Shown here: one piece after another, positions 1-13,404 of the stretch
How the letters are laid out: each line of letters starts with the position of its first letter
How positions within the stretch are numbered: the first letter of the stretch is position 1
Assembly (NCBI GenBank): GCA_019057795.1
Contig: JAHLWS010000044.1
Span: 1-13,760, forward strand
Length of the DNA stretch: 13,760 nucleotides
From: Promethearchaeota archaeon
Lineage (GTDB): Archaea > Asgardarchaeota > Lokiarchaeia > Sigyniarchaeales > SOKP01
Reading direction: 5' to 3'
The notes under the pieces: generated by a model
The model's input: the letters and a program-made list of their open reading frames with translations, nothing else
Database searches by the model: none
Told to the model about the DNA's origin: nothing
Translations under genes and position numbers: made by a program

Positions 1-99
1 AATTATTTAATGAAGGATGAAAAAAAGGAAAAAATAGGATATAAAATACCTGAAGGCAAGCGAATTTTCGTTCAAACCGTTCTAAGCGGCTACGAGTAA
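1..99 (+). CDS. 3' end of an upstream gene (partial, product unknown)
   Basis: Frame 1 is open from base 1 to TAA at 97-99: NYLMKDEKKEKIGYKIPEGKRIFVQTVLSGYE*. Protein-like composition, same orientation as the next gene. Confidence 0.55.
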   Translation, partial: NYLMKDEKKEKIGYKIPEGKRIFVQTVLSGYE

Positions 100-237
100 A
101 AACTTAAATTCAATGATCACCTAAAAGGACTTATACCCAAACATTAATGATTTGTTTATAAAATAATGCTATTAATATTTGGAAATATTTTTAAATTTTA
201 TTTTATAGCATAATATGATAAAAATCCCATTATGTAG

Positions 238-2379
238 ATGATAAATATGAAAATAAGTAAAAGGGATGATAGATTTGACCTCACATTTAAATCATTAATG
301 AAATTTGGAAGGCCTGTAATTGAAAAATTAGATTATAAGAAAAAAAGAAAAAAAGATATAACTTCTGACATTTATATTGATTTAGAAGGTGATCCACAAA
401 TAATTTTAAATAGTGTGCTTGATTCTTCTTTTGGAATTTTAGAAGGTTATAAAGGAACTGGGAAATCAACTATTTTTTTAGTAGCTATTGATAAATTGGA
501 AAGAAGGGATGATATTGTTACAGCCTATTCAAATTTACAATCATGCTTTGAGAATGAAGAAGTTATAGAAAATGTAGATTCAGAATTATTTATTAGGAGT
601 GTATTGAATGATATTAAAAATTCTTTAGTTGAAAATAAAAAGCTTGTTAAAATAAAGGAAAAAATAGAAAAAATTTTTAAAGCTGCTTTAAATGAAACAA
701 TTTTACTAAAAGAAAGCCAGGAAAGTTACATTGAAACTGAAGATATTTCCAATTCAAGAAAAAAGGAAAAAAAGGTTGGCGGAACTCTCTCAACTAAGCG
801 TATTGGTATTGATACGGGTATTTTAAAAATAGATCAGTCTCAAAGTTCGAAAAAGATTCAAACCTCTGGAACAGGTACTCGTAAATCTACCTTCAAAATT
901 ACTAAAACTATGAAAAATTTACAGATATTATTAAAGCAAGAAAAAATAGAGTCCTTATATTTATTCTTAGATGATTTTTCTGAATTAATAGATGATTATC
1001 AGAGAATCGCCATTAATCATTTTATTGGTCCTTTAGTAAAATCTTACAACGAGTTTGTTTCTATAAAGATTGCGGTTTACCCAAATCATTATGATGTGGG
1101 AGATTTAGATCGTACAAAGATGGTTAAAATAATTTTAGATCCATTAAGAAGATGGGAGTATTTGAAGATTAATGATTTGGAAAAAAAAATGACGCTTTAC
1201 ACAAAAAACATTTTAATTACCAGATTAAATAAATTTTTTGATGAGGATGTTGATATAACTAGCATTTTTGATATCAATATTTCGGGAAAAAAGAATTTAG
1301 ATTTTTATTTTGATTTATTAACAAAAGCTTCAGGATTTAATTTAAGAAATCTAGGTTATATTCTTCACTTTTGTTACATACAATATTTGAGTAGAAATAA
1401 AGAAATTACCGTAAATAGTATTGAATCTGCCGCTCAAACTTATTATAATGAGCATTTGGAACCTGAATTTGAAAATCCAAGATTACTAGAAGGGATAATC
1501 GATTTAGAAGATCATTTTAAAGATTTAAATTTTCAGATTTTTTTTAAGAAAAAATTAATAGAATTAGCAAAGAAAAAAAAGGATGAATTAAGAGAGACAT
1601 TTAAAAATGGTAGCTTAGATAACAAAACATTAGTTAAAGCAATTGAAAATAATCGAAGCAAAAATGTTTATTATATTCCAACTAGTCATTTTTGGGTAGA
1701 TGAATCTACATCGAAATATCTAATATATTTGGAAATGAATTTTATTGTAATTAAGTATGCAAGATTAGTTGACAAAAGTGGTAAAATAGGACATGTTTTT
1801 TGTTTAAATTATGGTTTATGTCAAAACTTTAATATTGACTATGGTAAATTAGATATGGATAAATATTGGCAACAAAGACAATTTAACTATACAGAAGATA
1901 TTTATGAAATATTTAAGAGTTCCCATATTAGAAAATGTTCAAAATGTAAGTTCATTTATACTGAACAACAATATCAAATGTTACTAAAAGATAAAGAAGA
2001 ATATAATCAAGATGCAATTTATTGTAAAAAATGTCATGAACCTAACACTATTCTAGTCAAAAAATCTATTCCTGATGAAACTATAAAATTTCATCAATTA
2101 TTGGAAAATTATGACCTTAGAGGAATCGATATAATCACACTAATTAAACTAAAAGTACTAAATAATTTTTATAATAAAAATGTAAATTACATCAAAGCTC
2201 AAGAAATTGCATCACTTATGGATACTGATGTAAAAAAAATAACTCCCGGTTTAGGAAAGATGGAAAGAAAAGATTATATTAATGCTAAACGAGTGAAAGG
2301 GAAAGTAAATAAATATTTAATAACCAAAAAGGGAATAAAAATTCTACAAGATTATTTTTCAATTAAAATTAATTCTTAA
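238..2379 (+). CDS. P-loop NTPase (ORC/CDC6- or KAP/STAND-like) with C-terminal Zn-ribbon and winged helix-turn-helix
   Basis: 713-aa ORF. Walker A GYKGTGKST (nt 445-471), Walker B LYLFLDDFSE, sensor-2-like GFNLRNLG, CSKC...CKKC pair, and a terminal MarR-like wHTH (IKAQEIASLMDTDVKKITPGLGKMERKDYI...KYLITKKG). The start may be the ATG at 247. Confidence 0.8.
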   Translation: MINMKISKRDDRFDLTFKSLMKFGRPVIEKLDYKKKRKKDITSDIYIDLEGDPQIILNSVLDSSFGILEGYKGTGKSTIFLVAIDKLERRDDIVTAYSNLQSCFENEEVIENVDSELFIRSVLNDIKNSLVENKKLVKIKEKIEKIFKAALNETILLKESQESYIETEDISNSRKKEKKVGGTLSTKRIGIDTGILKIDQSQSSKKIQTSGTGTRKSTFKITKTMKNLQILLKQEKIESLYLFLDDFSELIDDYQRIAINHFIGPLVKSYNEFVSIKIAVYPNHYDVGDLDRTKMVKIILDPLRRWEYLKINDLEKKMTLYTKNILITRLNKFFDEDVDITSIFDINISGKKNLDFYFDLLTKASGFNLRNLGYILHFCYIQYLSRNKEITVNSIESAAQTYYNEHLEPEFENPRLLEGIIDLEDHFKDLNFQIFFKKKLIELAKKKKDELRETFKNGSLDNKTLVKAIENNRSKNVYYIPTSHFWVDESTSKYLIYLEMNFIVIKYARLVDKSGKIGHVFCLNYGLCQNFNIDYGKLDMDKYWQQRQFNYTEDIYEIFKSSHIRKCSKCKFIYTEQQYQMLLKDKEEYNQDAIYCKKCHEPNTILVKKSIPDETIKFHQLLENYDLRGIDIITLIKLKVLNNFYNKNVNYIKAQEIASLMDTDVKKITPGLGKMERKDYINAKRVKGKVNKYLITKKGIKILQDYFSIKINS

Positions 2380-2391: not shown

Positions 2392-2575
2392 AATCTAATC
2401 CATCCCTAAAAAGGAATATTGATTTAATTTCTAAAAATCACATTCTAAATTTTCGGATTTGTTATTATAATCTTTTATATATTATCATTTTAGTATCTTA
2501 ATCTAAACTTCTCTACAGTAACTAATTTATATAACATTTCTGTTTTAGATTTAGTTTTGAAAAATCTTTTTTTAA

Positions 2576-4798
2576 CTAATATGTTAAACTCCAACCCTGA
2601 GGGCTCTTTCGAGAATATAAAATCATTTTTTTTTCCTTAAGATTACTTATTGAATTTTTAATTACATTCTGACTTGTTGCTATATGAATAATTGCGTCAA
2701 TAATTAACTGCTGACTTCTTATTAGCTTTTTTTCTTCAAGTAATCTGATTATATGGGATTCTAATTTAGAGGGGTTGCTGATTTTTTCTTCTGGCGTTTT
2801 TGGTCTTGTAGGTTGCAAAGTTTTTTGCCTTGCAGGAGGTGTTTTTGGTTTTGGTTCTTTTTCTACTACTTTCTCGCTCAAATCTATTTGTCTTATGTAT
2901 TCAAAAAACTCTGGTAAATTTATTCCAATTTTGCTTAGTATTTGGATATAGGAATTATAATTCATAATTTTTTCATGGAAAAACAGTTCTGAAAACTCTG
3001 TCATTAATAATAGTAAGTAATATGACTCTTCATTAGATAAATTTGTAACGCGACCTATTTGTGGACCGTATTTTAGGAGCGTCTCGACAATTTTATCATC
3101 TAGTGGTGATAATGTTACAAATGATAAGTGGTGTGTTTTTTTATTTTCTAAAAGTGCAATTGAACCTTCCACTTCTTTCAATTTAACTTTATTTGAGGGA
3201 TAATATGCTTTAACTTGAAGTTCAGCTTTTCGAATATTTTGTACGGATTCATTTCCAAATAAAGTAATATAAATATCTGGTTTTGCTTTTTTACCGTGGT
3301 TAGTTCTAATCGATGGTTCATGTTCAACTTTGTAAATAAGATTACCAAAAGGGGAATTTTCTTTTATTTCATTAAAGGCTCTAAATAAACCATATTCAAT
3401 ATCGCGCGATAATTGATTACGATTTGTGTAATTAGATAAGAAGTTGTCTAAAAAATTCATCTCGTTCTCAAATAGATAAATAGATTCCATTTTAGGGCGC
3501 ATAAAAAAGATAGAGTCTTTAGTATCCTTAAGATACGTAATAACCTTGTCCAATTTGAATTTTTCTACAATTTTATTCAATTTTTTCAATGAATCTCTTA
3601 AATTTCTATCATTAATTTCATAAAGGTATTGAAAAGCTCTAAGACTAAATGGAAAGTGAACATCTGCCCCCCTTGGTTTGAATTGAGTAGTTATTGATTT
3701 CCAGAACTCTATTAAAAACTTGTTCATGATTCTAGACGCGTCTTTTTCGCTTAAATTTATTAATGATATCTCGTCAAATTTAAAACCTGCTAACATATTT
3801 AATTCTGAAGTATTCAAGGTTTTATTGAAGAATTCCCAAAAATCGGTTGAGCCAATAGTTAATAACAAACAGTTGTTTATTGTATTTCTAAATTTTAATA
3901 AGATTCTAAATAAATTCTTGCAGGAATCTCTAATTTCAGGTAAATTTTCTAAATTATCAATTATTATTAGAAGGCACGATTTATTAGAAAGGAAAGTCAT
4001 GACAGAAATTAAATTTTCAAGTAAATTGATTGCTTCATCATCATTTTGCAAATTTTTTCCCATTATTTCATCATGAGCGGTTAAACGGAATTTAGTGTTA
4101 TCAGAGACTAAATCAATCAGAGTTTCAATGTAATCTATCGGTAAATTCATGGCATCATTGTTTAAGATTATGAAATCGAAATCTCTTATAAAATATTTTA
4201 AATCTCTAGCTAAATTGGGGGAGTTTTCTTTTAGTTTCATAATTAATTCAGTATGATCCGAGCATTTAGAAATAATTTTCCAAGCTGATGAAAATTTCTT
4301 GATAAAATTATCTCTAATTAAACTATCTTGTTCAAAAAAAGTACATAATTTTAATAAAAATTGAAAACCAAGTAGATACGGATACTGCCCAGGAGCCTTT
4401 CCCAAATCCTTTAATATTTTTTGGTATATGTTAATAATGTTCAAGAATTTAGCATCAGAGGGGCATTCAATATACGCACATTCAAGATAATCAATTTCTA
4501 GATCACGGGATTTTTTATTCTTTGCACTATCATAAACATATAAAGCTATAGTAGTTTTCCCTGTACCACCACTTCCATTAAGAGGAATCCAAGCTGATTT
4601 ATGATTAAAACCTGTAGCAACTTTTTCAATTCCATTTTTAATAATACCGATTTCTTCGTCTCGTCCCAAACAGAATTTTGGTAAGTCATCTCTTGAACAG
4701 ACGGGATTTCTGGGGAAAGGGTTTGGATTACTTAATAATTCGCGTTCTATTAAGTTTCTATAACGCTCATTTTCTGGGTCAATGAAATTGTAACTCAA
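2576..4798 (-). CDS. Cdc6/ORC-like AAA+ ATPase fused to a PD-(D/E)xK-type nuclease domain and C-terminal wHTH
   Basis: 740 aa, TTG start with GAGGA upstream. N-terminal NPF...GRDEEI, Walker A GSGGTGKTT, Walker B LLIIIDNLE, PFS...RNLRDSLK lid. Then E...KPDIYITL...AELQVK (nt ~3209-3280), a Pro/Lys-rich linker and a terminal wHTH-like domain ending in GWSL. Confidence 0.75.
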   Translation of the reverse strand: MSYNFIDPENERYRNLIERELLSNPNPFPRNPVCSRDDLPKFCLGRDEEIGIIKNGIEKVATGFNHKSAWIPLNGSGGTGKTTIALYVYDSAKNKKSRDLEIDYLECAYIECPSDAKFLNIINIYQKILKDLGKAPGQYPYLLGFQFLLKLCTFFEQDSLIRDNFIKKFSSAWKIISKCSDHTELIMKLKENSPNLARDLKYFIRDFDFIILNNDAMNLPIDYIETLIDLVSDNTKFRLTAHDEIMGKNLQNDDEAINLLENLISVMTFLSNKSCLLIIIDNLENLPEIRDSCKNLFRILLKFRNTINNCLLLTIGSTDFWEFFNKTLNTSELNMLAGFKFDEISLINLSEKDASRIMNKFLIEFWKSITTQFKPRGADVHFPFSLRAFQYLYEINDRNLRDSLKKLNKIVEKFKLDKVITYLKDTKDSIFFMRPKMESIYLFENEMNFLDNFLSNYTNRNQLSRDIEYGLFRAFNEIKENSPFGNLIYKVEHEPSIRTNHGKKAKPDIYITLFGNESVQNIRKAELQVKAYYPSNKVKLKEVEGSIALLENKKTHHLSFVTLSPLDDKIVETLLKYGPQIGRVTNLSNEESYYLLLLMTEFSELFFHEKIMNYNSYIQILSKIGINLPEFFEYIRQIDLSEKVVEKEPKPKTPPARQKTLQPTRPKTPEEKISNPSKLESHIIRLLEEKKLIRSQQLIIDAIIHIATSQNVIKNSISNLKEKKMILYSRKSPQGWSLTY

Positions 4799-4806
4799 TT
4801 TTTAAA

Positions 4807-4811
4807 TCCTC
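4807..4811 (-). promoter_or_regulatory. Shine-Dalgarno-like GAGGA for the 740-aa ATPase
   Basis: GAGGA on the - strand 8 nt upstream of the TTG at 4798, inside a 19-bp gap after the preceding gene's stop. Confidence 0.55.
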
Positions 4812-4817
4812 AAAATT

Positions 4818-5369
4818 TTATGTTTTTATAAATAAATAATAGAATTTCTTGCCAGTAGGACTCAATAGGTGGTAATCATTAGGATTTCCCCCTGGTTGCA
4901 AGTCGATAATTTGTTTTCGATATAATCGTAACATACCCTCTTCAAATTCTTTTATTAAAACATTATAGTTTGTTTGAAAAATGTTTTTTAGATCTTTTAA
5001 TGCAATATTTCCTTTTATTTGTTGAAAGTGTGATCTCTGATTAACAATTTTTATAATTTCCTGTTCTAATTCTTTATCACTCTTGAATTTGCCAGCTTTT
5101 TTTTCAGAAATTACTGATTTAAAGCTTACACCATCAATCTTCAATAGGTCTTCTATTTTTGAAATTCTTTTTTCGAGGTTAAAAACTATATTTCTAAGCT
5201 CAATATTCTCTCTTTTTTCACTTGGTATAATCGGTGAAATCCTAACTTCAGAACTTTTACTAGATTTTGTTGTTATTTTTTTTAATTTTCCTTGGTGAAA
5301 TTTTGAATTTATATGACGACTTGAATTAGGATTTTTAAGTTCTTTACCACATATTTTACATTTTGGCAT
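4818..5369 (-). CDS. C2H2 zinc finger / coiled-coil / winged-helix protein
   Basis: 183 aa. N-terminal CKIC-x11-H-INSKF-H, a basic Ser-rich linker, a heptad segment LRNIVFNLEKRISKIEDLL, and a C-terminal wHTH-like segment (IALKDLKNIF...EFEEGMLRLYRKQIIDLQPG...GKKFYYL). Confidence 0.75.
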   Translation of the reverse strand: MPKCKICGKELKNPNSSRHINSKFHQGKLKKITTKSSKSSEVRISPIIPSEKRENIELRNIVFNLEKRISKIEDLLKIDGVSFKSVISEKKAGKFKSDKELEQEIIKIVNQRSHFQQIKGNIALKDLKNIFQTNYNVLIKEFEEGMLRLYRKQIIDLQPGGNPNDYHLLSPTGKKFYYLFIKT

Positions 5370-5603
5370 ATAATTTGTCTTTCCCCCTTAATTATAATCT
5401 AGTTTTCTAAAAGTCTATTTTATAAATAAATTATCATAAAAAATGACACTTCAATAATTGGTTTTAATTTATTTAAATATTGTTTTATTTATTTGATTGA
5501 CAAGAGAATTACTGTTGAATTAGCAAATGGAGCCTGAAATCAAATTCGAGTTAAGTGAAATTCAAAATATTGAGAAAGTTATTAGAGCCCAAGTAGTAAA
5601 ATT

Positions 5604-7325
5604 TTAAAAATTCTCTTTTAAAAATTCATTAGGGTAGTTCAACGCGGTAAAAAATAAGGGCGTACCCGAAAAAGACAGAGGTGAAATTGGACCAATAGCC
5701 ATAAAAGGATATTCTCTCTTTCCTAGGCTACTTTGGGGGTCATTGAAATTTTGATATAGTTTTATGGCTTCTGTAGCCCCACCGATGATCTCCCACAAAG
5801 CTTGTCGCTCAATTCCCCATGCTAACCCAAATCCAAAAATGAAAATTCTAATTTGGTTTAAAATCTCTCTGTGAAGGCTTGAGAGTGTTTGACTGATAAA
5901 CATCCAACCTAAACCATATTTTCTAGTAGTTCTTACGGCATCTATAAAGATTGATTTTAGTGATTCAATATCTTCATCATCTGATTTTTCTCTAGGTGCT
6001 AATCTATGAGCCTCATCAATAACTACGAGAGAATTTAATTTTCCTCCTTCTTTAAATCTCTCTGCAGCTTGTTCATTGATTTTAATTAACATTTGTTTTA
6101 TTGCTATTAGTTGGATTTTTTCATTCCAAATTATATCTTTGGGTTTTTCTCTAGATGATAAATCAATTATAACTAATGCTCCTTTTTTAGAAATATTTTT
6201 GAAAAGCTCAGATAATAGAATACTTTTTTCTCGATATTTAAATAGGCTAGTAATCCCATTCCAAATAGAAAACATTTCATTTGCATCAAGATTGTGCCAG
6301 GAACTTTTTACTCTTTCTTTTGGAGATTTTGTCCCAATTGTTTTCTTTAAAAACGCTTCTGTTGGTATTTGCTTCCATATTCTGTTAAAAGCTACTCTTT
6401 TATAATAATTCCAATGTTTTATTTCTTCATCTAAAGTACCATTTGCTTTTAATATAGAAACAAATTCATTCACAAATCTTACTTTATGATCATTGAACCA
6501 AATAGAGAGTTTATCAAAAAAATTAGTTGCAGATAATAATCTTGTAAATAGAATTTCGCTATAGTTGAATTGGATATTTTGTAATGTTAATATTTTTATG
6601 TCACGCTTCAAATTTTCTTTTATTATTGCTTTTAAATCTGGATTTGAACTGAATTCTATAGAAAATTCTCCTTGAGGGTCTAATATGTAAATAGACATAC
6701 CTTTATGACGAAGATATCCTGTTATCATCATTTTCGCTAGAACAGATTTACCAGATCCTGTTTTTCCGAAAATTCCTATATGATAAGCTTCTCCTACTCC
6801 ATGCTTTTCTGGACCAAAATGCTTTAACCACATAGGTAAATTGAAATCTGTTCCATAAGTTTTACCTAAATAAAATAATTCATCTTGATAATCTGCCAAT
6901 AAGGCATTCATTATTTTATCATCAAATAATTTTATACGAGTACCCGTCGATGGAACTGTTCCAAAAAGGCTAGGTTGAACTGAGTTATCATGTACAGAAA
7001 AAACAGAACTTATGATCATTTTAGCCATATGAATATCTTGTTTTTCTGTAATGGGATCAACTCGTCCTCTTTGTCTTATTATCCCCCTCATAGTAGGATC
7101 TTGGGTCCATATATTTTGCATCATTATTTCAGTAATTTGACCCAATGCGTAATGCTCTTTACCATCTTGGTAATAATTAAAAATACTAAATTTTCCCACT
7201 AAGCCTTTATTTACAGCTGTTCCTAAAATATCTACTGCTAGCTCGTTAGTGGATGAAGGGGAACCAATAACTCCTATATTTTCTTCCTGATCAAAAATCT
7301 CTTTAATATTAGTTAATATTTTCAC
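5604..7325 (-). CDS. herA: HerA-family helicase/translocase (HAS barrel + FtsK/HerA ATPase)
   Basis: N-terminal HAS-barrel-like IGVIGSPSST...LGQITEI, HIGIFGKTGSGKS Walker A, ILDPQGEF, VVIDEAHRLAP Walker B, RKYGLG and FISQ motifs. The probable start is the GTG at 7325, one base after the nurA stop; the ORF track extends it to 7364 by overlapping nurA. Confidence 0.9.
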   Translation of the reverse strand: MKILTNIKEIFDQEENIGVIGSPSSTNELAVDILGTAVNKGLVGKFSIFNYYQDGKEHYALGQITEIMMQNIWTQDPTMRGIIRQRGRVDPITEKQDIHMAKMIISSVFSVHDNSVQPSLFGTVPSTGTRIKLFDDKIMNALLADYQDELFYLGKTYGTDFNLPMWLKHFGPEKHGVGEAYHIGIFGKTGSGKSVLAKMMITGYLRHKGMSIYILDPQGEFSIEFSSNPDLKAIIKENLKRDIKILTLQNIQFNYSEILFTRLLSATNFFDKLSIWFNDHKVRFVNEFVSILKANGTLDEEIKHWNYYKRVAFNRIWKQIPTEAFLKKTIGTKSPKERVKSSWHNLDANEMFSIWNGITSLFKYREKSILLSELFKNISKKGALVIIDLSSREKPKDIIWNEKIQLIAIKQMLIKINEQAAERFKEGGKLNSLVVIDEAHRLAPREKSDDEDIESLKSIFIDAVRTTRKYGLGWMFISQTLSSLHREILNQIRIFIFGFGLAWGIERQALWEIIGGATEAIKLYQNFNDPQSSLGKREYPFMAIGPISPLSFSGTPLFFTALNYPNEFLKENF

Positions 7326-7326
7326 C

Positions 7327-8466
7327 TTATTTTCCCCACTCGGTTCTATAACCATGCATAGCAAAATATAAATCTGAATACTTTCCCTCCCAGTTTTGGC
7401 TCATTTCCTGCGTGGTTGTTTTTCTTATCGCAGGTAAAGCAGTTCTCAAATGTTTTACCATTCTATCAGCTAAATACAACGGAAATGGTTCCATAAGCCC
7501 TGGAACGCTACATTGTGACTTTACAGATTCTAAGAGAACAGATAATCTATTTCTACTATTCGCTACACGGGAGGAGACCTCTAATCTTAGGGCAGGGATA
7601 TGATCATATGGCCGATAATAAAAAATACATATTTCATTTAAATAATGAATGACATTTTTAATTAAAGGCTCAGAATTAGATGGAGCTTTTTCAATATACC
7701 ATCTTTGGGTGCCCATTTCAGCGGGAATTGGTCCCACAACCTCGCCAGGTTTTAAGACGAAAGAGAGGAGCCCACGATCTTCGTAATTGCTATTCAATTT
7801 TAAAATGTTATGTGTAATTTATTGCCTTGTGGTATATTTTGGAACTGCTACAAAAATTTGGTCAGTTTTTTTTGAAAGTACAATTTTGATATAAGCTGCT
7901 AATGCAAGTTTCAATCTTTTACTAAAATCTGTCTTCAATTCTTCTGGCGCTTCATAAAGTGTATTAAGTGCTTGGTTAATATATACTAAAGGTGTTACAA
8001 AGGAACCATCAAAGAAAACTACATTATGGGGTGCCTTTACTGCAAGGGATAATTCCATACACATCATAATGGCACTAGTTATGAAATTTGTAGCATTGTT
8101 ATGTTTAATTGTAAGAATTTTTGAATAATGTCGTGGTTTTGGCCAGTGTCTAACTTCAGTGGGTGGTGCTAACCCTTCAACAGCTACACTAGCAGCGGCT
8201 ACAATATCCGTTGAGAGAAGTTTCTCTATAGAAAATGAACCATCTACAGCGCAACAAGTAGGATATGTTGGGGGGTGCATTATATCTGAATCTTTTACCA
8301 ATAACTTTTTTTCTTTCAATTTTTTTCTAATATCCTTTTTAATGTTATAGAGATCATGAAACGACTTTGAAAGCTTCAAGCCTATATCACCGCATTGATC
8401 TAGCATATCAACTACTAATGCTTCAGGCAATTCGTTAAAAGGATTTTCAGATATAATTTCAACCAT
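7327..8466 (-). pseudogene. nurA: NurA-family 5'-3' nuclease interrupted by one in-frame TAA at 7819-7821
   Basis: The two track ORFs (7819-8523 and 7327-7797) are in the same frame: ...VPKYTTRQ*ITHNILKLNSNYEDRGLL... The NurA motifs AVDGS and FFDGS precede the stop and EPFPLYLADRMVK follows it. Likely ATG at 8466, giving 379 codons. Lies directly upstream of herA. Confidence 0.85.
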
Positions 8467-8599
8467 GATAATGTAAAAAAGAATTTTTACTTTTTTGTGT
8501 ATTTTCGAGCTTACCCTTAACAACTATATGTAGGTATATAATATTGAATAATATCAATATATGTTAAGGATTTAACTTCCTACTAAAGTCATCAATTGA

Positions 8600-8788
8600 G
8601 TTTCTATAATTTGGTTTATTGCTGATTTCCATCTTTCACATAAAAACATCATAAAATATTGCAATCGACCTTTTAAGAATATTGAGGAGGTGGACAATCC
8701 AATAATAAGGAATCTTAAAGAATCGGTTAAATCAGATGATATTCTATATTTCCTTGGCGATCCTTTTTATAATAAAAACAGCAATTAA
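8600..8788 (+). pseudogene. N-terminal fragment of a calcineurin-like metallophosphoesterase
   Basis: Manual translation: VSIIWFIADFHLSHKNIIKYCNRPFKNIEEVDNPIIRNLKESVKSDDILYFLGDPFYNKNSN*. It contains motif I (DxH) and the start of motif II (LGD), with the typical HxNIIKYCNRPF segment. No ATG, and the GNH and later motifs are absent. Confidence 0.8.
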
Positions 8789-8830
8789 ACTAATCATTCC
8801 CAATAGAATGATAACATTATATCCTGGAAT
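8744..8830 (-). other. Loki-CTERM-like C-terminal sorting signal
   Basis: IPGY motif, hydrophobic helix and basic residues (KR) at the extreme C-terminus. This is the tripartite layout of archaeosortase-type signals. Confidence 0.7.
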
Positions 8831-11155
8831 CCCTTCTGGTGGAGGGTTTGTTGTAGGAATATCTTTTATTACGATTACTTCGTCAAAACTTATATTTCCC
8901 AGAGTATCATTAGCATAGAATCTAATAGTAACATATCCATTTGGCAATTGATTCCATAAGGTTAGATCTATCACTCCGATCAATTCAGTTATAAATATTT
9001 TATTTGTTCCACCATCGAAAGTGTACCAGATTTTATCTAAATTTGCTTCTGTGATTGTCATTTCATAAGCGGGGGGTATTTCAAATACTTCATCTTGTAT
9101 AGGTGTAATAATACTGATTTGGGGCGCATCAACATCTTTTTCTACGATTATACTTTCTTGAAAGATATCACCTGCGGTACTATTAACGGAAAATGTTAAA
9201 GTAATCAATCCGCTTAGCTGCAAATCCCACGCTCCTTGATTAATCGTGTCATTATTAGAAAATGTGAAATTAGTTAATCCATCATCGATAGAATACCATA
9301 TTGTGTCTACACTTATATTGTAAATTTCCACGTTGAAAGCAGGAGCGTTAAATCCAAAGAGCCCATTTTCCAGCGGGAGATTAATAGATATTTCTGGATA
9401 CGCTTGTTTACTGATATTAATGAGTTGACTGCCAATATTTCCTAGGCTATCATTTGCATAGAATGTGAGAATTACAGGACCATTTTGGATTGTATTCCAG
9501 GCATCTTGGTCGATTGTATTATTATTCGTAAAGATATATTTATATATTCCCGTATTAATTGTATACCACATTAAATCAAGGTGATGATCTTGAATAAGGA
9601 CATTAAATGACGGTGAATTACCCCCGTATGATGAATTAGGAAGCGGATTGTTTACAGTTATGTTTGGAGGCGTGGTATCTTTTATAATTATAACCTCATC
9701 ATGGGCAAGATTCCCTGCTGAATCGTTTACATAAAATCTTAAGATGACATTGCCATCAAAACAATTATCCCAAGCAGTTTGATTAATCATGCCTGTCGTT
9801 TCAGTAAAGCTGTAATTATTTCCTCCATTTAATGAATACCAAGTTGAATGTAGATTTCCATCATTCACTGAGACATTAAAGTTTGGTGATAAATTGCCAA
9901 AAAGTTGATTTTGGTTCGGAATTTCAATAGCTATACTTGGTAAAATGAGATTTTTATAAATTATTACGCTTGCAGAGGATAAATGTCCAACAGTATCGTT
10001 TGCGAAGAACGTTAAAGTAATCGTTCCATTTTCACATGCGTCCCACACAGTTTGATTGATTGTACCTGTCGTTTCAGTAAGGCTGTAATTATTTCCTCCA
10101 TTTAATGAATACCAAGTTGAATGTAGATTTCCATCATTCACTGAGACATCAAAGTCTGGTGCCGAGCTACCAAAAAGTTGATATTGGAATGGATTGGTAA
10201 TGGATATATCTGGCTCAATGATATCTTTATATATAGTGACTTCAGCAGATCCTATATTGCCTAAGGTATCATTTGCGTAAAATCTTAGGATAATGGTTCC
10301 ATTTTCACATGTGTCCCACGCAGTTTGATTGATTATTCCTGTATTTCCTGAAAAAGTATAATTTGTTCCTCCATTTAAGGAATACCAAGATGAATTTAAT
10401 TCGGGTGTAGTGATGGATATGTTATAATTTATAGTCGACTCACTAAATACGTTATTAGTTTCGGGTGAAATAATTATAATTTCTGGTAGATTCAAATCAT
10501 TTCTATATTTTACTAAGCTCATTTTATCTCCTCCAAATGGAGCACCATACCGTAGCGAACCCATGAGATATACATTCCCCCATGAATCAAGTGCGATACC
10601 CTCGGCGAAATCACTATAAAGAGTGCCCCAAGAATCCATAAATTTTAAAACCCCCGAATTATCATATACTAATAAAAGATAATTCATCCAACCGAATTGA
10701 TTAAATTGGCTATAACCTGCAATATATACATTTGAATCCGAATCTAGGATAATTTTACGCCCTCTCGATTGACTATAAGGTCCTTTCCAATCTACTATCC
10801 ATTGACGTACACCAGAACTGTCATATTTTGCAATGACTATCTCATCATAACCATTAGAATCTTCTGAAAATTCAACTACATACACATTATAATCAGAATC
10901 CACAGCCAGATCATTAAATGAACCCCAATCGGCTATCCATTGAAGGTCCCCGGAGCTATTCCATTTTGTAAGACTACTTCCAGCAACATACACATTATCT
11001 AAATTATCGACCGCGACACCTTTCCCTCGGCTACCTCCAAATGTGCGATTCCATTGATATTGTCCTAAAGAGTTATATTTTACTAGGAAAGGTTGCCAAC
11101 TTCCCGTAAAACTATTTGTATATCCTGTTATATAGACATTATCTTTACTATCCAT
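8744..11155 (-). CDS. SBBP repeat / Ig-like repeat surface protein, C-terminal part with sorting signal
   Basis: 803 aa. Five more SBBP repeats, six ~91-aa P-x-I-x-I-x-x-P...WYSLNGG...FYANDTLGN repeats with many N-x-S/T sequons, and the tail PPPEGIPGYNVIILLGMISLIAVFIIKR. Confidence 0.8.
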   Translation of the reverse strand: MDSKDNVYITGYTNSFTGSWQPFLVKYNSLGQYQWNRTFGGSRGKGVAVDNLDNVYVAGSSLTKWNSSGDLQWIADWGSFNDLAVDSDYNVYVVEFSEDSNGYDEIVIAKYDSSGVRQWIVDWKGPYSQSRGRKIILDSDSNVYIAGYSQFNQFGWMNYLLLVYDNSGVLKFMDSWGTLYSDFAEGIALDSWGNVYLMGSLRYGAPFGGDKMSLVKYRNDLNLPEIIIISPETNNVFSESTINYNISITTPELNSSWYSLNGGTNYTFSGNTGIINQTAWDTCENGTIILRFYANDTLGNIGSAEVTIYKDIIEPDISITNPFQYQLFGSSAPDFDVSVNDGNLHSTWYSLNGGNNYSLTETTGTINQTVWDACENGTITLTFFANDTVGHLSSASVIIYKNLILPSIAIEIPNQNQLFGNLSPNFNVSVNDGNLHSTWYSLNGGNNYSFTETTGMINQTAWDNCFDGNVILRFYVNDSAGNLAHDEVIIIKDTTPPNITVNNPLPNSSYGGNSPSFNVLIQDHHLDLMWYTINTGIYKYIFTNNNTIDQDAWNTIQNGPVILTFYANDSLGNIGSQLINISKQAYPEISINLPLENGLFGFNAPAFNVEIYNISVDTIWYSIDDGLTNFTFSNNDTINQGAWDLQLSGLITLTFSVNSTAGDIFQESIIVEKDVDAPQISIITPIQDEVFEIPPAYEMTITEANLDKIWYTFDGGTNKIFITELIGVIDLTLWNQLPNGYVTIRFYANDTLGNISFDEVIVIKDIPTTNPPPEGIPGYNVIILLGMISLIAVFIIKRIAKEI
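8860..10486 (-). repeat. Six tandem Ig-like domain repeats, 273-bp period among the first three
   Basis: 9809-9876 is identical to 10082-10149 (68 nt). 10023-10061 matches 10296-10334 at 37/39. Both offsets are 273 nt. Confidence 0.85.
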
Positions 11156-11180: not shown

Positions 11181-12764
11181 TCATCTCCTCCCCCAAGTAA
11201 TATTCCATATTAGAGTTCCAAATTTATTAAATTTAGCTATAAACGCGTCGAATAATGTAGCCCCAAAACTGGACGTATATCCTCCGATTAACACATTCCC
11301 TTCTGAATCTAGGGTTAATCCCGCACACCAATCCGCTCCACTCGCACCCCATGTAAAATTTAAAACTTGTTCTTTATTTCTATCGTATTTTAACACTGAG
11401 ACATCTATTATTTCCGTGTAATAATCTCTAAAACTTGAGGCAATGTACATGTTATCTAAAGAATCTATATGAATCAGTTCACCTTCATATCTTCCTCCAT
11501 TATTCACCGTTGAATTCCAAACTTGAACTCCAAGATTATCGAATTTTGCCCATAAGGTAGCATATTCGGAATCAATTAATGTCCAAATATTTCCGGTTAA
11601 ATCTAATTGTACTAATTTACCCGCGTCCGGTTTCCCTTCTCCATGAGTTATACTCCATGCTAATCCACCTGTATTATTAATTTTTAAAAGACACGCATCT
11701 CCTTCGCTTGATCCGTAGCTTAAAGTTTGACCTAACACATAGGAATTATTGAGAGAGTCGACCACAATATCTTTTCCTAAATCATTTGCAATACCCCCCC
11801 AAGTTAGGTTCCATTGTTGATTTCCGGAGGAATTATACTTAACGGCAAAAAGATCATTCCCCTGACCTGCCTTATCTAAATATCCCGTTAAATAAATATT
11901 TTCAAATGAATCTAGTGTAATCCCGTTGCAACTATCCGTTGATCCGCCATCCCAGACTTTACTCCAACCTAAATTACCGAGTGTATCGTATTTTAATAGT
12001 ATAACATTACCTCCAGAATCTCCACCGATATATATATTATTATTAGAATCAATTTTAATCCCGCTACAATAATCGGCTCCTGTAGTGCCCCAAGTTTGAT
12101 CCCATTGATATACACCATTGTTATTGAACTTGACCATACAAAAGTCATAATCTCCTGCTCCATAACTCCTTGTATGACCTGCGATATAGATATTCTCCTC
12201 AGAGTCTAATGCTATTCCATATGCATAATCACGATCGGTGCCCCCCCAAAGAACATGCCATTGATATGTACCTTCACTATCAAATTTCATTAAACTCATG
12301 TTATAATCCCATTCAACAACATTCCAAACAGCACCCGCTAGATAAATATTATTTTCAGAATCAAGAGTGATAGCATAGCAATAATCCAATACATCATCAT
12401 TACCCCAAGTTTTATCCCAAATTAAATTGCCTGATTGATCATATTTCTGAAGGATAATGTCTATCATATTCCATGATCCTATTGGTGCTTTATCAAAATT
12501 ATCCCTATACCCCGCTACATAGAGCTTTCCTGATGCGTCTCTTGCTATTCCGGTGTAAACTACGGGTGTTGGGTTTCCCAATGTCATATTCCAATCATAA
12601 GAAAACGACATATCTCCAGAAGATAAATCAGGCACGATAGGATCATTAATTTCCTGAGGAGAGTAATTAAAATCTAAAATAAATGAAAATGTGAAAACCA
12701 AAATGAATAGTACAATAATCAAAATTGAGGATTTTTTAATGATTTTTTGAATAATTGAACCCAC
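11181..12764 (-). CDS. SBBP repeat-containing protein, N-terminal part
   Basis: 527 aa, GTG start. Hydrophobic N-terminal segment (ILIIVLFILVFTFSFIL) and nine DSxxNxYxxG-type repeats with WxxTWGG motifs. Confidence 0.8.
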   Translation of the reverse strand: MGSIIQKIIKKSSILIIVLFILVFTFSFILDFNYSPQEINDPIVPDLSSGDMSFSYDWNMTLGNPTPVVYTGIARDASGKLYVAGYRDNFDKAPIGSWNMIDIILQKYDQSGNLIWDKTWGNDDVLDYCYAITLDSENNIYLAGAVWNVVEWDYNMSLMKFDSEGTYQWHVLWGGTDRDYAYGIALDSEENIYIAGHTRSYGAGDYDFCMVKFNNNGVYQWDQTWGTTGADYCSGIKIDSNNNIYIGGDSGGNVILLKYDTLGNLGWSKVWDGGSTDSCNGITLDSFENIYLTGYLDKAGQGNDLFAVKYNSSGNQQWNLTWGGIANDLGKDIVVDSLNNSYVLGQTLSYGSSEGDACLLKINNTGGLAWSITHGEGKPDAGKLVQLDLTGNIWTLIDSEYATLWAKFDNLGVQVWNSTVNNGGRYEGELIHIDSLDNMYIASSFRDYYTEIIDVSVLKYDRNKEQVLNFTWGASGADWCAGLTLDSEGNVLIGGYTSSFGATLFDAFIAKFNKFGTLIWNITWGRR

Positions 12765-13022
12765 CTTTTTGTCGATAATATTATAAAATAGCTTATACCA
12801 TTATAAATATTTTGGCACTAGACTTAAATGATATTATAATAAATCGAGGACTTGCTATGGCTCGATCCCAACTTTATAAGTTATGCCTATCAACTTCTGC
12901 AACATTCACAGGTTGTTATGAGCAGGCAAGCACGATGGAGGTATTCAATACATTTAATTCCTAGTAATTTTAATGATATCTCGAGAAACTTCTTTAATAA
13001 TAGTAGCGAATACGGGTAGAGT

Positions 13023-13223
13023 TTATTCAGTGGTAATTATAACACTATTTCGGATAATCAGCCATTCACCTCCTTTCTTTTTCAATACTCCGGTTAATCT
13101 TTCTTGTAGACTCAATTTTCGGCCCCCGATTGTCAAATTGACAGTTAATTCTGCTACAAGTCATGCAATTTATCCATGATAATATATTTTCTTCCAATCA
13201 AATGTGATGGAGATTTCTTTTAG
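13023..13223 (-). pseudogene. NTF2/SnoaL-like (DUF4440-type) gene remnant, C-terminal half
   Basis: Manual translation: LKEISITFDWKKIYYHG*IA*LVAELTVNLTIGGRKLSLQERLTGVLKKKGGEWLIIRNSVIITTE*. It fits the G-x-x-A-W...R-x-T-x-V-L-x-K-x-x-G-x-W-x-I pattern, with stops at 13170-13172 and 13161-13163. Confidence 0.65.
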
Positions 13224-13404
13224 ATAAAGTACGAGTTATTGATGGAGTCGATTCACAAATGCATGTGAGTATTACTTTAGACGTTTTTAAATGGGTTAAT
13301 TCAATAAAATTATGAATATTTCTTTTTTTCCATGTATTTATAATATTCCTCCTTGTCACTAAAGGAAGTTTCGTCAACTTCTTACTCGCTATGGTAAGCC
13401 ATAG

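What the first reader, a model, noticed from the sequence alone, without database searches (positions are those of the whole stretch)
2576..8466. Candidate novel system: stand-alone NurA-HerA followed by a ZnF-wHTH protein and an AAA+ ATPase-nuclease
Seen: four co-oriented genes (nurA-like, herA, ZnF-coiled coil-wHTH, Cdc6-like ATPase + PD-(D/E)xK + wHTH), so two nucleases and two ATPases. Established: the canonical archaeal nurA-herA pair sits with mre11-rad50 for end resection, while HerA also partners with effectors in antiviral systems (Sir2-HerA, DUF4297-HerA). Here no rad50 or intact mre11 is adjacent, and the flanks hold pseudogenes and an IS. Inference: an accessory defence or foreign-DNA-degradation module. 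Caveat: the 234-bp gap after herA means it may be two independent two-gene modules.
Basis: partly seen in the sequence, partly recalled or inferred. Interest (0 to 1): 0.75.

Follow-up and report, generated by a model that had tools for sequence, protein, structure and literature searches.

The report
Asgard NurA-HerA plus ORC-like nuclease cassette
A Loki-type Asgard archaeon carries an extra, horizontally moving DNA-shredding pair (NurA nuclease, here broken by one stop codon, and the HerA motor) beside an Asgard-only pair, a small DNA-binding protein and an ORC-like ATPase with a built-in restriction-type nuclease. The same four genes recur together elsewhere, so this is probably an untested anti-virus/plasmid system of a kind so far predicted only from sequence.

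Summary
Four co-oriented minus-strand genes fill 2576-8466: a NurA-family nuclease cut by one in-frame TAA (7821-7819), HerA, a 183-aa C2H2 zinc-finger/coiled-coil protein (ZnFp), and a 740-aa protein (ATPnuc) made of an Orc1/Cdc6-like AAA+ ATPase, an Mrr-like PD-(D/E)xK nuclease and a C-terminal winged helix.

The cassette is accessory. The genome has a canonical herA-nurA-mre11-rad50 operon on another contig. This nurA-herA type is in only 20 of 400 genomes of the phylum, yet has 35-79% identical copies across distant archaea and bacteria.

ZnFp-ATPnuc is the constant unit: 44 of 50 loci, found almost only in Asgard archaea and often beside known defence genes. NurA-HerA lies next to it in about 10 loci, involving two NurA-HerA lineages and at least four ATPnuc clades. 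One locus is a tight four-gene operon; one metagenome contig is 91% identical across exactly these four genes, with nurA intact. Both pairs also occur alone.

The closest published description is the computationally predicted "Orc/CDC6-coupled HerA/FtsK capture systems" (PMC10853773). I rate it a new variant of a predicted kind, with nurA dead in this copy. The scan has met related DruA-NurA-HerA and Orc/Cdc6-HerA cassettes before on other DNA.

The parts
7327..8466 (-). nurA-like gene (NurA family), a pseudogene here: 215 codons, an in-frame TAA, then 163 codons
   Evidence: Read-through translation. The intact 379-aa ortholog hits Pfam NurA at 21.1 bits against a cut-off of 21. A 12-sequence alignment has invariant D75, E138, D153-G154, K210, E242, Y283, E296, E326, Y331 and D334. 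928 homologs were found, many carrying PF09376 and named NurA.
7819..7821 (-). In-frame TAA nonsense codon (Glu216 in orthologs)
   Evidence: GAA at the same codon in L031. The position is variable (E/L/N/K) in the alignment. nurA is intact in the 91%-identical contig L207.
5604..7325 (-). herA (HerA/FtsK-superfamily hexameric translocase ATPase, 573 aa), starting 1 nt after the nurA stop
   Evidence: Pfam DUF87 at 1.3e-16 and PADLOC HerA models. Walker A GKTGSGKS and Walker B VVIDEAH are intact. A profile search of the PDB gives defence-type HerAs first (9c1m 2e-13, TdpA 4e-10), ahead of S. solfataricus HerA (4e-6). HerA lies immediately downstream of nurA in 76 of 80 loci.
5370..5603 (-). 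234-bp AT-rich spacer with a conserved CAATATTTAAAT box (5482..5471); possible internal promoter
   Evidence: The same 12-mer lies in the 127-bp spacer of the G018 ortholog, 82-100 nt before the ZnFp start codon. Promoter function is inferred only.
4818..5369 (-). ZnFp: small partner protein with an N-terminal C2H2-type zinc finger, a basic linker, a coiled coil and a conserved C-terminal domain (probably a winged helix)
   Evidence: 16-sequence alignment. ZnFp directly precedes ATPnuc in 44 of 50 loci. In other members the N-terminus is a SAP domain instead (Pfam SAP 1e-5). There is a weak MCM winged-helix hit in one member. The Atlas places it in a Promethearchaeota-only cluster without Pfam families.
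3485..4798 (-). ATPnuc residues 1-438: Orc1/Cdc6-like (initiator-clade) AAA+ ATPase with an N-terminal invariant P27-F28 motif, Walker A GSGGTGKT, Walker B IIID(281) and R304
   Evidence: Model m32a4bc82a0f9, pLDDT 82.7. VIA-align Z is 16.6 (7jgr_G Cdc6), 15.9 (1w5s), 15.2 (2qby_B and BrxC 9zdx), followed by TnsC and MuB. Foldseek gives ORC/Cdc6 and RdrA. Pfam AAA_16 is weak in 13 of 13 members.
2879..3487 (-). ATPnuc residues 438-640: Mrr-like PD-(D/E)xK (restriction endonuclease fold) domain with catalytic residues conserved
   Evidence: E468, P507-D508 and V529-K530 (ExQVK) are invariant. Domain model pLDDT is 92.8. Foldseek gives AspBHI 1.5e-4, AF1548 and MspJI; VIA-align gives VC1899 Z 9.2, AF1548 8.0, Can2 8.0 and McrC 7.9. 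Pfam Mrr_cat_2 and Mrr_cat are weak in 5 of 13 members.
2576..2878 (-). ATPnuc residues 641-740: Pro/Lys-rich variable linker and C-terminal winged-helix-like domain
   Evidence: Helices 678-722 and strands 728-739 in the model, with low pLDDT. Pfam HTH_45 hits 4 of 13 members. The tail resembles the tail of a 560-aa protein conserved in the genus.

Best explanation
The 5.9-kb block is an accessory, horizontally exchanged cassette that most likely acts against invading DNA. It has two cooperating modules.

Module A (ZnFp + ATPnuc) is the constant, almost Asgard-only core. It pairs a small DNA-binding adaptor (zinc finger or SAP domain, coiled coil, winged helix) with an ORC/Cdc6-type AAA+ switch that carries its own Mrr-type nuclease and a winged helix. 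By analogy with ORC/Cdc6, TnsC, MuB and BrxC, I infer that it assembles on target DNA in an ATP-dependent way, and that its nuclease makes the first cut.

Module B (NurA + HerA) is a facultative add-on, captured several times from two lineages. By analogy with the characterised HerA-NurA complexes, I infer that the HerA hexamer threads DNA ends into the NurA dimer, which degrades them processively. That would turn a single cut into destruction of the invader.

Shown: gene content, domain identities, conservation of catalytic residues, recurrence of the linkage, accessory status and defence-gene neighbourhoods. Inferred: the physical interaction, the target, the order of events and the defence phenotype.

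In this window nurA is cut at codon 216 of 379. The break removes invariant E242, Y283, E296, E326, Y331 and D334, so module B is probably inactive here, while herA, ZnFp and ATPnuc are intact.
For: Accessory status:
- A canonical herA-nurA-mre11-rad50 operon lies on C47.
- This NurA type is in 20 of 400 phylum genomes and 3 of 41 genus genomes, yet is 71-79% identical between different Asgard families and 35-58% identical in Methanosarcinales, Bathyarchaeota, Chloroflexota, Bacillota and others.

Linkage:
- ZnFp precedes ATPnuc in 44 of 50 loci.
- NurA-HerA lies upstream, in the same order and strand, in the window, G018, G223:C5 and G008:C21. In G198:C147 it does too, with DruA in between.
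- The same order is seen in metagenome contigs L200, L207 and L208. L209 and L211 are adjacent but inverted.
- In G008 the four genes are separated by 3, 7 and 20 nt.
- L207 is 91.4% identical to window 2562-8471, that is, exactly the four genes.
- The four linked ATPnuc genes sit in four different clades of the ATPnuc tree.
- Two distinct NurA-HerA lineages are involved.
- All 6 genomes with the second lineage also carry ATPnuc (hypergeometric 2e-6, kin not independent).

Defence context:
- Neighbours of ZnFp-ATPnuc pairs are PDC-S11, AriA/OLD, GajB, NERD-UvrD, a retron-type PRTase and pAgo.
- NurA-HerA relatives sit with DruA in 48 of 79 loci.

Template:
- The same logic (Orc/CDC6 AAA+ with an inserted REase fold and a C-terminal wHTH, a HerA/FtsK motor, a nuclease and a wHTH protein, with HerA 'captured' from several sources) was predicted as a counter-invader class in PMC10853773.
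- The HerA profile scores defence-type HerAs and TdpA above repair HerAs.
Against: - No experiment exists for any member, and no interaction was tested. Co-folding was not available.
- About 85% of ATPnuc loci have no NurA-HerA nearby, and most NurA-HerA loci have no ATPnuc. Each module can evidently work alone.
- Two adjacent cases are inverted (L209, L211), and in G198 a DruA gene lies between the modules. This fits neighbouring systems as well as one system.
- In the window and in G018 a 127-234-bp spacer with a conserved TATA-like box separates the pairs.
- The published template describes the inserted REase as inactive and the motor's nuclease as a REase. Here the inserted REase looks active and the motor's nuclease is NurA.
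- nurA is broken here, and independently in G099 (TGA).
- Defence-island association is guilt by association. PADLOC has no model for NurA, ZnFp or ATPnuc.
Confidence: 0.52

Rival explanations
1. Two independent two-gene defence-like modules happen to sit side by side in a variable, defence-rich region. NurA-HerA is one stand-alone DNA-degrading system, a relative of the DruA-NurA-HerA cassettes. ZnFp-ATPnuc is another stand-alone ATPase-nuclease system. There is no physical or functional coupling between them.
For: - Both pairs are mostly found apart.
- A spacer with a conserved promoter-like box separates them in the window and G018.
- Inverted arrangements occur in L209 and L211.
- In G198, DruA lies between them, so NurA-HerA-DruA may be complete by itself.
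- ZnFp-ATPnuc also neighbours many other defence genes.
- ATPnuc has its own apparently active nuclease.
Against: - The adjacency recurs about 10 times, with two NurA-HerA lineages and at least four ATPnuc clades.
- Most of the closest NurA relatives with enough flank have a ZnFp-ATPnuc neighbour (L200, L207, L208, L209, L211, the window and G018, against L204, L068, L069 and L081).
- G008 has a tight four-gene operon with 3-20-nt gaps.
- The 91%-identical block shared with L207 ends exactly at the four genes.
- The same three-part logic is a recurrent predicted system in bacteria.
Confidence: 0.3
2. The cassette is the DNA-processing, replication or partition gear of an integrated plasmid or virus. 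On this reading the ORC/Cdc6-like protein is a replication initiator or nickase, and HerA is a DNA pump for transfer or packaging.
For: - The AAA+ fold is Orc1/Cdc6-like, with a C-terminal wHTH.
- HerA/FtsK ATPases serve in conjugation and packaging (established knowledge; PMC10853773).
- ParA-type ATPases follow NurA-HerA in several loci.
- The contig is short and ends in repeats.
- Distribution is patchy and many copies sit on short contigs.
Against: - No integrase, capsid, primase, polymerase or conjugation gene was seen in the window or in the linked loci examined.
- Only one distant NurA relative (25% identity) and no close ATPnuc relative were found in 2.9 million viral contigs.
- Nuclease catalytic residues are conserved in all members.
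- Neighbours are defence genes, not mobile-element backbone genes.
Confidence: 0.08
3. The pair is a second, redundant DNA double-strand-break end-resection machine (a NurA-HerA paralog), and the downstream genes are unrelated.
For: - The NurA and HerA families are the archaeal resection enzymes.
- The same subfamily is fused into nurA-herA-mre11-rad50 operons in 10 Nitrososphaeraceae loci.
- NCBI annotation names the relatives 'DNA double-strand break repair nuclease NurA'.
Against: - No mre11 or rad50 lies here, and the canonical operon is present elsewhere in the genome.
- The pair is absent from most genomes of the genus.
- Transfer between phyla is evident.
- The usual partner is DruA.
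- The gene is a pseudogene here and in G099.
Confidence: 0.07

Closest known systems
Orc/CDC6-coupled 'HerA/FtsK capture systems' (Nucleic Acids Res 2024, PMC10853773, section 22; comparative-genomic prediction only)
   Same: - An Orc/CDC6-type AAA+ ATPase has a restriction-endonuclease-fold domain inserted between the ATPase and its C-terminal wHTH.
- A HerA/FtsK motor lies in the same neighbourhood.
- There is a nuclease and a separate, fast-evolving wHTH-containing small protein.
- The motor is acquired repeatedly from different sources, and the neighbourhoods are mobile.
   Different: - The paper describes the inserted REase as inactive; here E468, D508 and QxK530 are invariant.
- The motor's nuclease is a separate NurA (RNase H-like fold), not a REase or a 3'-5' exonuclease fusion. 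NurA is not mentioned in that paper.
- The small partner has a C2H2 zinc finger or SAP domain plus a coiled coil, not 2-4 DndG-like wHTH domains.
- The HerA linkage is facultative, seen in about 15% of loci.
- The family is nearly restricted to Lokiarchaeia-type Asgard archaea. Sequence homology to the bacterial Orc/CDC6 proteins of that paper could not be tested, because none of its sequences or accessions could be retrieved with these tools.
DruA-NurA-HerA three-gene cassettes
   Same: The same NurA and HerA subfamily and the same nurA-then-herA order with near-abutting genes. They show the same patchy, cross-domain spread. DruA lies within 5 kb in 48 of 79 loci.
   Different: There is no DruA in the window or anywhere in this genome. 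In the Lokiarchaeial clade the neighbour is ZnFp-ATPnuc (or ParA plus a NucS-like nuclease) instead.
Canonical archaeal HerA-NurA end-resection complex with Mre11-Rad50 (for example S. solfataricus 4d2i, T. kodakarensis 9x1l; PMC12977600)
   Same: The protein families are the same, and presumably so is the hexamer-dimer, ATP-driven DNA-end degradation.
   Different: There is no mre11 or rad50 here. The gene order is nurA-herA. The pair is accessory and horizontally transferred, and the genome has the canonical operon on C47. The sequence match to repair HerAs (E 4e-6, 2e-5) is weaker than to defence HerAs.
HerA-based anti-phage systems: Sir2-HerA, DUF4297-HerA (PMC11514289, PMC11472057, PMC11291478) and TdpAB of TdpABC (PDB 8wet TdpA)
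   Same: A HerA-type hexameric ATPase is paired with an effector in a defence role. These HerAs are the best PDB sequence matches of the window's HerA profile.
   Different: The effector here is NurA, with no Sir2, DUF4297 or phosphorothioation gene. That TdpB is NurA-like rests on my memory and on earlier scan notes, and was not checked here.
BREX BrxC and archaeal PF01637 ATPases (PAB2304, SSO1545)
   Same: Initiator-clade, ORC-like AAA+ fold. BrxC scores Z 15.2, PAB2304 12.9 and SSO1545 12.3.
   Different: No BREX genes are present. The Mrr-like nuclease insertion and the ZnFp partner are specific to this family.

Membership tests
NurA (Pfam PF09376) | Profile match at or above the curated cut-off | tested here: met
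   The intact ortholog L031:165-1304 scores 21.1 bits against a cut-off of 21, which is borderline. The type-2 NurA of G008 scores 24.7 bits. Many of the 928 homologs carry precomputed PF09376. The two window fragments alone do not match.
NurA (Pfam PF09376) | Conserved acidic catalytic residues of the RNase H-like fold (D, E, D and a C-terminal D/H) | tested here: met
   D75, E138, D153 and D334 are invariant in 12 sequences and are encoded in the window. They are split by the TAA, so no single polypeptide carries them all. No structure model was made of NurA.
NurA-HerA pair | Adjacent, co-transcribed nurA and herA | tested here: met
   The herA GTG lies 1 nt after the nurA stop. HerA is directly downstream in 76 of 80 genome loci.
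HerA (Pfam PF01935 DUF87; FtsK/HerA superfamily) | Profile match above the cut-off, with intact Walker A and B | tested here: met
   61.9 bits against a cut-off of 23.2. GKTGSGKS and VVIDEAH are conserved.
Canonical archaeal herA-nurA-mre11-rad50 repair operon | Linkage to mre11 and rad50; single, vertically inherited copy | tested here: not met
   No mre11 or rad50 lies in the window. The canonical operon is on C47: 2415-4163, 4399-5391, 5431-6735 and 6739-8832. This type is present in 20 of 400 genomes of the phylum.
Orc/CDC6-coupled HerA/FtsK capture systems (PMC10853773) | Orc/CDC6-family AAA+ ATPase | tested here: met
   Z is 16.6, 15.9 and 15.2 to Cdc6/Orc1 structures over residues 19-437. 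The Foldseek top hits are ORC/Cdc6. This shows fold-level similarity; sequence-level orthology to the paper's proteins was not testable.
Orc/CDC6-coupled HerA/FtsK capture systems (PMC10853773) | REase-fold domain inserted between the AAA+ core and the C-terminal wHTH (described as inactive) | tested here: met
   The position and fold are met. The 'inactive' part is not met: E468, D508 and K530 are invariant.
Orc/CDC6-coupled HerA/FtsK capture systems (PMC10853773) | HerA/FtsK motor in the same operon or neighbourhood | tested here: met
   Met in this window and about 9 other loci. It is absent from about 85% of ATPnuc loci, so the linkage is facultative.
Orc/CDC6-coupled HerA/FtsK capture systems (PMC10853773) | Separate active REase nuclease (one of two families, one shared with AbiJ) | tested here: not met
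   The separate nuclease is NurA, which has a different fold. No further REase gene lies in the cassette.
Orc/CDC6-coupled HerA/FtsK capture systems (PMC10853773) | Small, fast-evolving wHTH protein | tested here: inconclusive
   ZnFp is small and fast-evolving, at 12-55% identity. Its C-terminal wHTH rests only on a weak MCM winged-helix hit in one member.
DruA-NurA-HerA cassette / Druantia | DruA (PF14236) next to nurA-herA; DruE for Druantia | tested here: not met
   There is no DruA in the window or the genome. DruA is present in relatives.
Sir2-HerA / DUF4297-HerA | Sir2 or DUF4297 effector gene adjacent to herA | tested here: not met
   Pfam and PADLOC scans of all window proteins show neither.
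Mrr-type PD-(D/E)xK nucleases | alpha-beta-beta-beta-alpha-beta core with D...(E/Q)xK motif | tested here: met
   Secondary structure H-E-E-E-H-E. P507-D508 and E526-x-Q528-V-K530 are conserved. The best fold matches are Mrr-like domains of AspBHI, MspJI and AF1548. Pfam Mrr_cat and Mrr_cat_2 hits stay below cut-off.

The most novel reading that the evidence does not exclude
ZnFp-ATPnuc is a previously unnamed immune module almost restricted to Asgard archaea. In it an ORC/Cdc6-type ATP switch with its own Mrr-type nuclease, guided by an adaptor carrying eukaryote-typical DNA/RNA-binding modules (U1/matrin-like C2H2 finger or SAP), marks and cuts invading nucleic acid. It then hands the ends to a repeatedly captured NurA-HerA shredder. 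This would be a two-stage 'cut then shred' immunity, and the first defence role shown for a bona fide NurA-HerA pair in archaea.
Probability: 0.35. Interest if true: 0.72.

Novelty: new variant of a known kind. Interest (0 to 1): 0.55.

Why it matters
Four reasons.

1. The predicted but untested class of Orc/Cdc6-HerA "capture" defence systems would extend to Asgard archaea, the closest prokaryotic relatives of eukaryotes. NurA would be added to the list of nucleases coupled to captured HerA motors.

2. NurA-HerA is usually read as a repair machine. Here it is a mobile effector module that pairs with interchangeable partners: DruA in many bacteria and archaea, Mre11-Rad50 in Nitrososphaeraceae, and ZnFp-ATPnuc or ParA plus a nuclease in Lokiarchaeia. 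This warns against annotating every NurA-HerA as "double-strand break repair".

3. The adaptor family swaps a C2H2 zinc finger for a SAP domain. Both are typical of eukaryotic nuclear proteins, which is of interest for the origin of such domains.

4. Intact versions exist: the tight four-gene operon in G008 and contig L207. They give a compact, directly testable system.

Tried and rejected
- Pfam and PADLOC on the two nurA fragments gave nothing. Only the intact ortholog identifies the family.
- A profile of the NurA alignment against PDB sequences gave only a marginal P. furiosus NurA hit (E 0.28).
- A single-sequence HerA search against the PDB gave nothing. The profile search worked.
- A profile of the nuclease domain against PDB sequences gave nothing meaningful. 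Fold searches were needed.
- The search for related loci with the single ATPnuc protein, with the ATPnuc alignment (no conserved stretch) and with the Caldisericum relative P0178 found nothing in genome contigs.
Contexts of database hits such as the Lokiarchaeum and Methanosarcinales proteins had to come from other tools.
- Recoding or an alternative genetic code for the TAA is rejected. It is a single event, TAA also ends nurA itself, and close relatives have a sense codon there.
- No tRNA or Rfam RNA lies in the window.
- Viral origin: one distant NurA hit and no close ATPnuc hit in viral contigs.
- DruA was sought in the genome and not found. The family search rang in no control genome, so the tblastn result is the one to trust.
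- The supplement of PMC10853773 held as text had no Asgard, NurA or Orc entries.
- L202's 708-aa gene after a ZnF protein is not an ATPnuc member and was not counted.
- The careful tree search did not finish. The quick IQ-TREE tree was used.

Full report
**What is there.** The window is a whole 13,760-bp contig (C44) of a 4.95-Mb, roughly 31% G+C genome in 87 contigs. Earlier scan notes, and the record titles of its closest relatives, place it in the Loki-type Asgard archaea (Promethearchaeia). Five reading frames on the minus strand make up four genes between 8466 and 2576.

- The first two frames are one gene. Reading 8523..7327 through gives a single in-frame TAA at 7821-7819.
- In a same-genus genome (G018, L031) the orthologous gene is intact (379 aa) and has GAA at that codon.
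- That ortholog reaches Pfam NurA (21.1 bits, cut-off 21).
- An alignment of 12 relatives keeps the acidic residues expected of NurA: D75, E138, D153, D334.
- A profile search of 5.8 billion proteins finds 928 relatives. Many carry PF09376 and are named NurA in Promethearchaeota, Thor-, Hod- and Helarchaeota and Methanosarcinales.
- herA starts at GTG 7325, 1 nt after the nurA stop, and is a clear DUF87/HerA protein with intact Walker motifs.

After a 234-bp spacer come ZnFp (183 aa) and, 19 nt later, ATPnuc (740 aa).

**The two downstream proteins.** ATPnuc has only weak P-loop hits in Pfam, NCBIfam and PADLOC.

- An AlphaFold model built on 13 homologs (pLDDT 82.7) matches Cdc6/Orc1 best over residues 16-438 (Z 16.6, 15.9, 15.2). 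BrxC, TnsC, MuB and the archaeal PF01637 ATPases follow (Foldseek agrees).
- Residues 438-640, modelled alone (pLDDT 92.8), have the restriction-endonuclease core. Their best matches are almost all PD-(D/E)xK nucleases: AspBHI, MspJI, AF1548, VC1899, Can2, McrC and LlaBIII.
- The family alignment has invariant E468, P507-D508 and (E)xQ-V-K530, an Mrr-type motif.
- A Pro/Lys-rich linker and a winged-helix-like tail follow.

ZnFp begins with CX2CX12HX5H. Its relatives share a coiled coil and a conserved C-terminal domain of about 80 aa. The N-terminus, however, is either this zinc finger or a SAP domain (Pfam SAP 1e-5), or is missing. The wHTH assignment of the C-terminus is weak, resting on one MCM-WH hit.

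**Is the nurA-herA pair the housekeeping repair copy? No.**

- Contig C47 carries herA (2415-4163), nurA (4399-5391), mre11 (5431-6735) and rad50 (6739-8832).
- The window's NurA type is found in only 20 of 400 genomes of the phylum and 3 of 41 of the genus. Yet copies in different families are 71-79% identical.
- In one-genome-per-species contigs it occurs at 35-58% identity in Halobacteria, Methanosarcinales, Methanomicrobiales, Bathyarchaeota, Nitrososphaeraceae, Chloroflexota, Bacillota, Desulfobacterales, Verrucomicrobiota, Poribacteria and others. HerA is directly downstream in 76 of 80 loci.

Clustering the neighbours of those loci gave two informative partners:

- DruA (PF14236, E 1e-106) lies within 5 kb in 48 of 79 loci.
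- Mre11 plus Rad50 lie directly downstream in 10 Nitrososphaeraceae loci.

So this NurA-HerA subfamily is a mobile two-gene module that joins different partners. The scan has already flagged DruA-NurA-HerA cassettes on other DNA many times. I found no paper naming them. This genome has no DruA.

**Is the four-gene linkage real?** ATPnuc relatives occur in 46 of 400 phylum genomes. These are mainly Lokiarchaeia families, 5 of 41 in the genus, and several copies carry internal stops. Named examples are Lokiarchaeota and Hodarchaeota proteins and DSAG12_00610 of Prometheoarchaeum syntrophicum. A few distant bacterial relatives also exist, in Caldisericum and Chloroflexota.

- In 50 ATPnuc loci a ZnFp gene lies directly upstream in 44. 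This pair is the constant unit.
- NurA-HerA lies upstream, same order and strand, in five of them.
  - The window, G018 (55-79% identical proteins) and G223:C5 (NurA/HerA 57-63% identical, ATPnuc only about 25%) carry the window's NurA-HerA type.
  - G008:C21 and G198:C147 carry a second, very different NurA-HerA lineage. Its NurA scores 24.7 bits on Pfam NurA and its HerA 61 bits on DUF87.
- In G008 the four genes are separated by 3, 7 and 20 nt, and the next gene is the PADLOC candidate PDC-S11 (E 2e-40).
- In G198 a DruA gene on the other strand lies between the pairs.
- A scan of metagenome contigs with the NurA profile added more cases.
  - L207 is 91.4% identical in DNA to window 2562-8471, that is, exactly the four genes, and has nurA intact.
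  - L200 and L208 have the same order with ATPnuc proteins only 24% identical to the window's.
  - L209 (ATPnuc 50% identical) and L211 have the pair adjacent but inverted.
- In a quick maximum-likelihood tree of 43 ATPnuc proteins, the four linked genes fall in four different well-supported clades. The label needs four changes.
- All six genomes with the second NurA lineage also have ATPnuc. Relatives are not independent, so the small p-value overstates this.

The linkage is therefore recurrent and repeatedly re-made. It is also facultative and, in some cases, not operonic.

**Defence context.** Genes next to ZnFp-ATPnuc pairs in other genomes match known or candidate defence proteins: AriA/OLD-type ATPase (5e-45), GajB-type UvrD helicase (3e-38), NERD-UvrD (4e-70, next to this genome's second ZnFp-ATPnuc pair on C79), a retron-type PRTase (3e-48, in P. 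syntrophicum), pAgo (2e-29) and PDC-S11. A TnpB/Cas12-like gene is also a neighbour in one locus. The HerA profile matches defence-associated HerAs in the PDB (9c1m 2e-13, 8wiv, TdpA 8wet 4e-10, 8ziq, 8xau) better than repair HerAs (4d2i 4e-6, 9x1l 2e-5). Viral contigs hold almost nothing similar.

**What it most resembles.** PMC10853773 (NAR 2024) predicts, from genome comparison only, "HerA/FtsK capture systems". There a specific Orc/CDC6 AAA+ ATPase has a REase-fold domain inserted before its C-terminal wHTH. It is coupled to a HerA/FtsK motor taken from various sources, to an active nuclease, and often to a fast-evolving wHTH protein.

The window's four genes map onto this template one to one: ATPnuc, HerA, NurA and ZnFp. 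The repeated capture of two NurA-HerA lineages mirrors the paper's central observation. The differences are listed under Closest known systems:

- an apparently active inserted REase;
- NurA instead of a REase as the motor's nuclease;
- a zinc-finger/SAP adaptor;
- facultative linkage;
- near-restriction to Asgard archaea.

The scan has met bacterial versions of this class many times. It has not met this ATPnuc family outside this window.

**Mechanism.** Inferred, not shown: ZnFp and the wHTH of ATPnuc bind target nucleic acid. ATP-dependent assembly of the ORC-like ATPase licenses the Mrr-type nuclease to cut. HerA-NurA then loads on the ends and degrades the DNA processively.

The residue after the Walker B aspartate is not a conserved glutamate in this family. 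This suggests a slow, switch-like ATPase.

In this window nurA is truncated after 215 residues, so the shredder is probably off. herA, ZnFp and ATPnuc are full length with motifs intact. A second, independent nonsense (TGA) is seen in the Thorarchaeota copy. This fits the frequent decay of costly defence genes, but is also expected for any dispensable gene.

**Other details.**

- The spacer between herA and ZnFp contains CAATATTTAAAT in both the window (5482..5471) and G018, 82-100 nt before the start codon. It may be a promoter.
- Against L207, the window's NurA is only 77-83% identical while HerA, ZnFp and ATPnuc are 92-95%. Against G034, NurA is 89-96% identical and HerA 79%. This indicates recombination near the nurA/herA junction.
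- Both contig ends are repeated elsewhere in the genome. This explains the short contig and fits a variable region.

**Verdict.** I put about 0.5 on a functionally coupled system, 0.3 on two neighbouring independent modules, and the rest on mobile-element or repair roles.

Noticed in passing
window 238-2379 (+): A 713-aa orphan protein has a P-loop (GYKGTGKST), a C-terminal CxxC...CxxC zinc ribbon and a probable winged helix. It is convergent with ATPnuc. It has no Pfam, NCBIfam or PADLOC family, no paralog in the genome, and is not part of the block shared with L207. It may be another defence-type ATPase.
   Followed up: partly
window 8744-11155 and 11181-12764 (-): Two large secreted or anchored proteins with SBBP beta-propeller repeats and Ig-like repeats lie upstream of nurA. 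The same upstream context is seen in metagenome contig L203 (88% identical to window 6652-9596).
   Followed up: partly
window 1-141 and 13407-13760: The contig ends are repeats. Bases 1-141 are identical to C82:1-141. Bases 13479-13760 are 94% identical to the start of C57. Bases 13651-13757 are 99% identical to C16:8962-9068. The stretch 12765-13760 has no long ORF. This may be a small repeated element or an assembly-graph branch.
   Followed up: partly
Genome-contig loci L087-L151 (for example L110:8839-10008): DruA (PF14236, E 1e-106) lies beside NurA-HerA in 48 of 79 loci across many bacterial and archaeal phyla. A few loci also have a DruE-like DEAD/MZB helicase (L142:934-6045). I found no paper naming this triad.
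   Followed up: partly
L152-L162 (Nitrososphaeraceae): The same NurA-HerA subfamily forms nurA-herA-mre11-rad50 operons in 10 Nitrososphaeraceae loci. One subfamily therefore spans both repair-type and defence-type contexts.
   Followed up: no
L069:141-2156, L070:11132-13145, L072, L204, L219, L221: An alternative neighbour of Lokiarchaeial NurA-HerA is a ParA/MinD-type ATPase (305 aa), a protein of about 190 aa, and a 155-aa NucS-C/PD-(D/E)xK nuclease.
   Followed up: no
L196:3831-6551 (G038:C207): A 906-aa protein appears to be a NurA-HerA fusion of the second lineage.
   Followed up: no
A3 alignment; for example L035:11067-11657, L033:8477-9142: The ZnFp family swaps its N-terminal module between a U1/matrin-like C2H2 finger and a SAP domain. 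Both domain types are mostly known from eukaryotic nuclear proteins.
   Followed up: partly
G000:C79:10492-13578 (L036:7993-11079): The genome has a second ZnFp-ATPnuc pair (SAP-type partner of 205 aa plus an 815-aa ATPnuc) without NurA-HerA. It sits next to a NERD-UvrD protein (PADLOC C3a187, 4e-70).
   Followed up: partly
window 7327-8466 against L207 and L069: The cassette is a mosaic. The window's NurA is 77-83% identical to L207, while HerA, ZnFp and ATPnuc are 92-95%. NurA is 89-96% identical to G034, whose HerA is only 79%. There is a recombination breakpoint near the nurA/herA junction.
   Followed up: partly
L193:6617-9710 (G202:C87): The second-lineage NurA-HerA is followed there by an HNH-domain protein (414 aa) and a DUF4407-like coiled-coil protein (554 aa), with an SMC/JetC/LmuB-like ATPase nearby. 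This is another candidate partner set.
   Followed up: no
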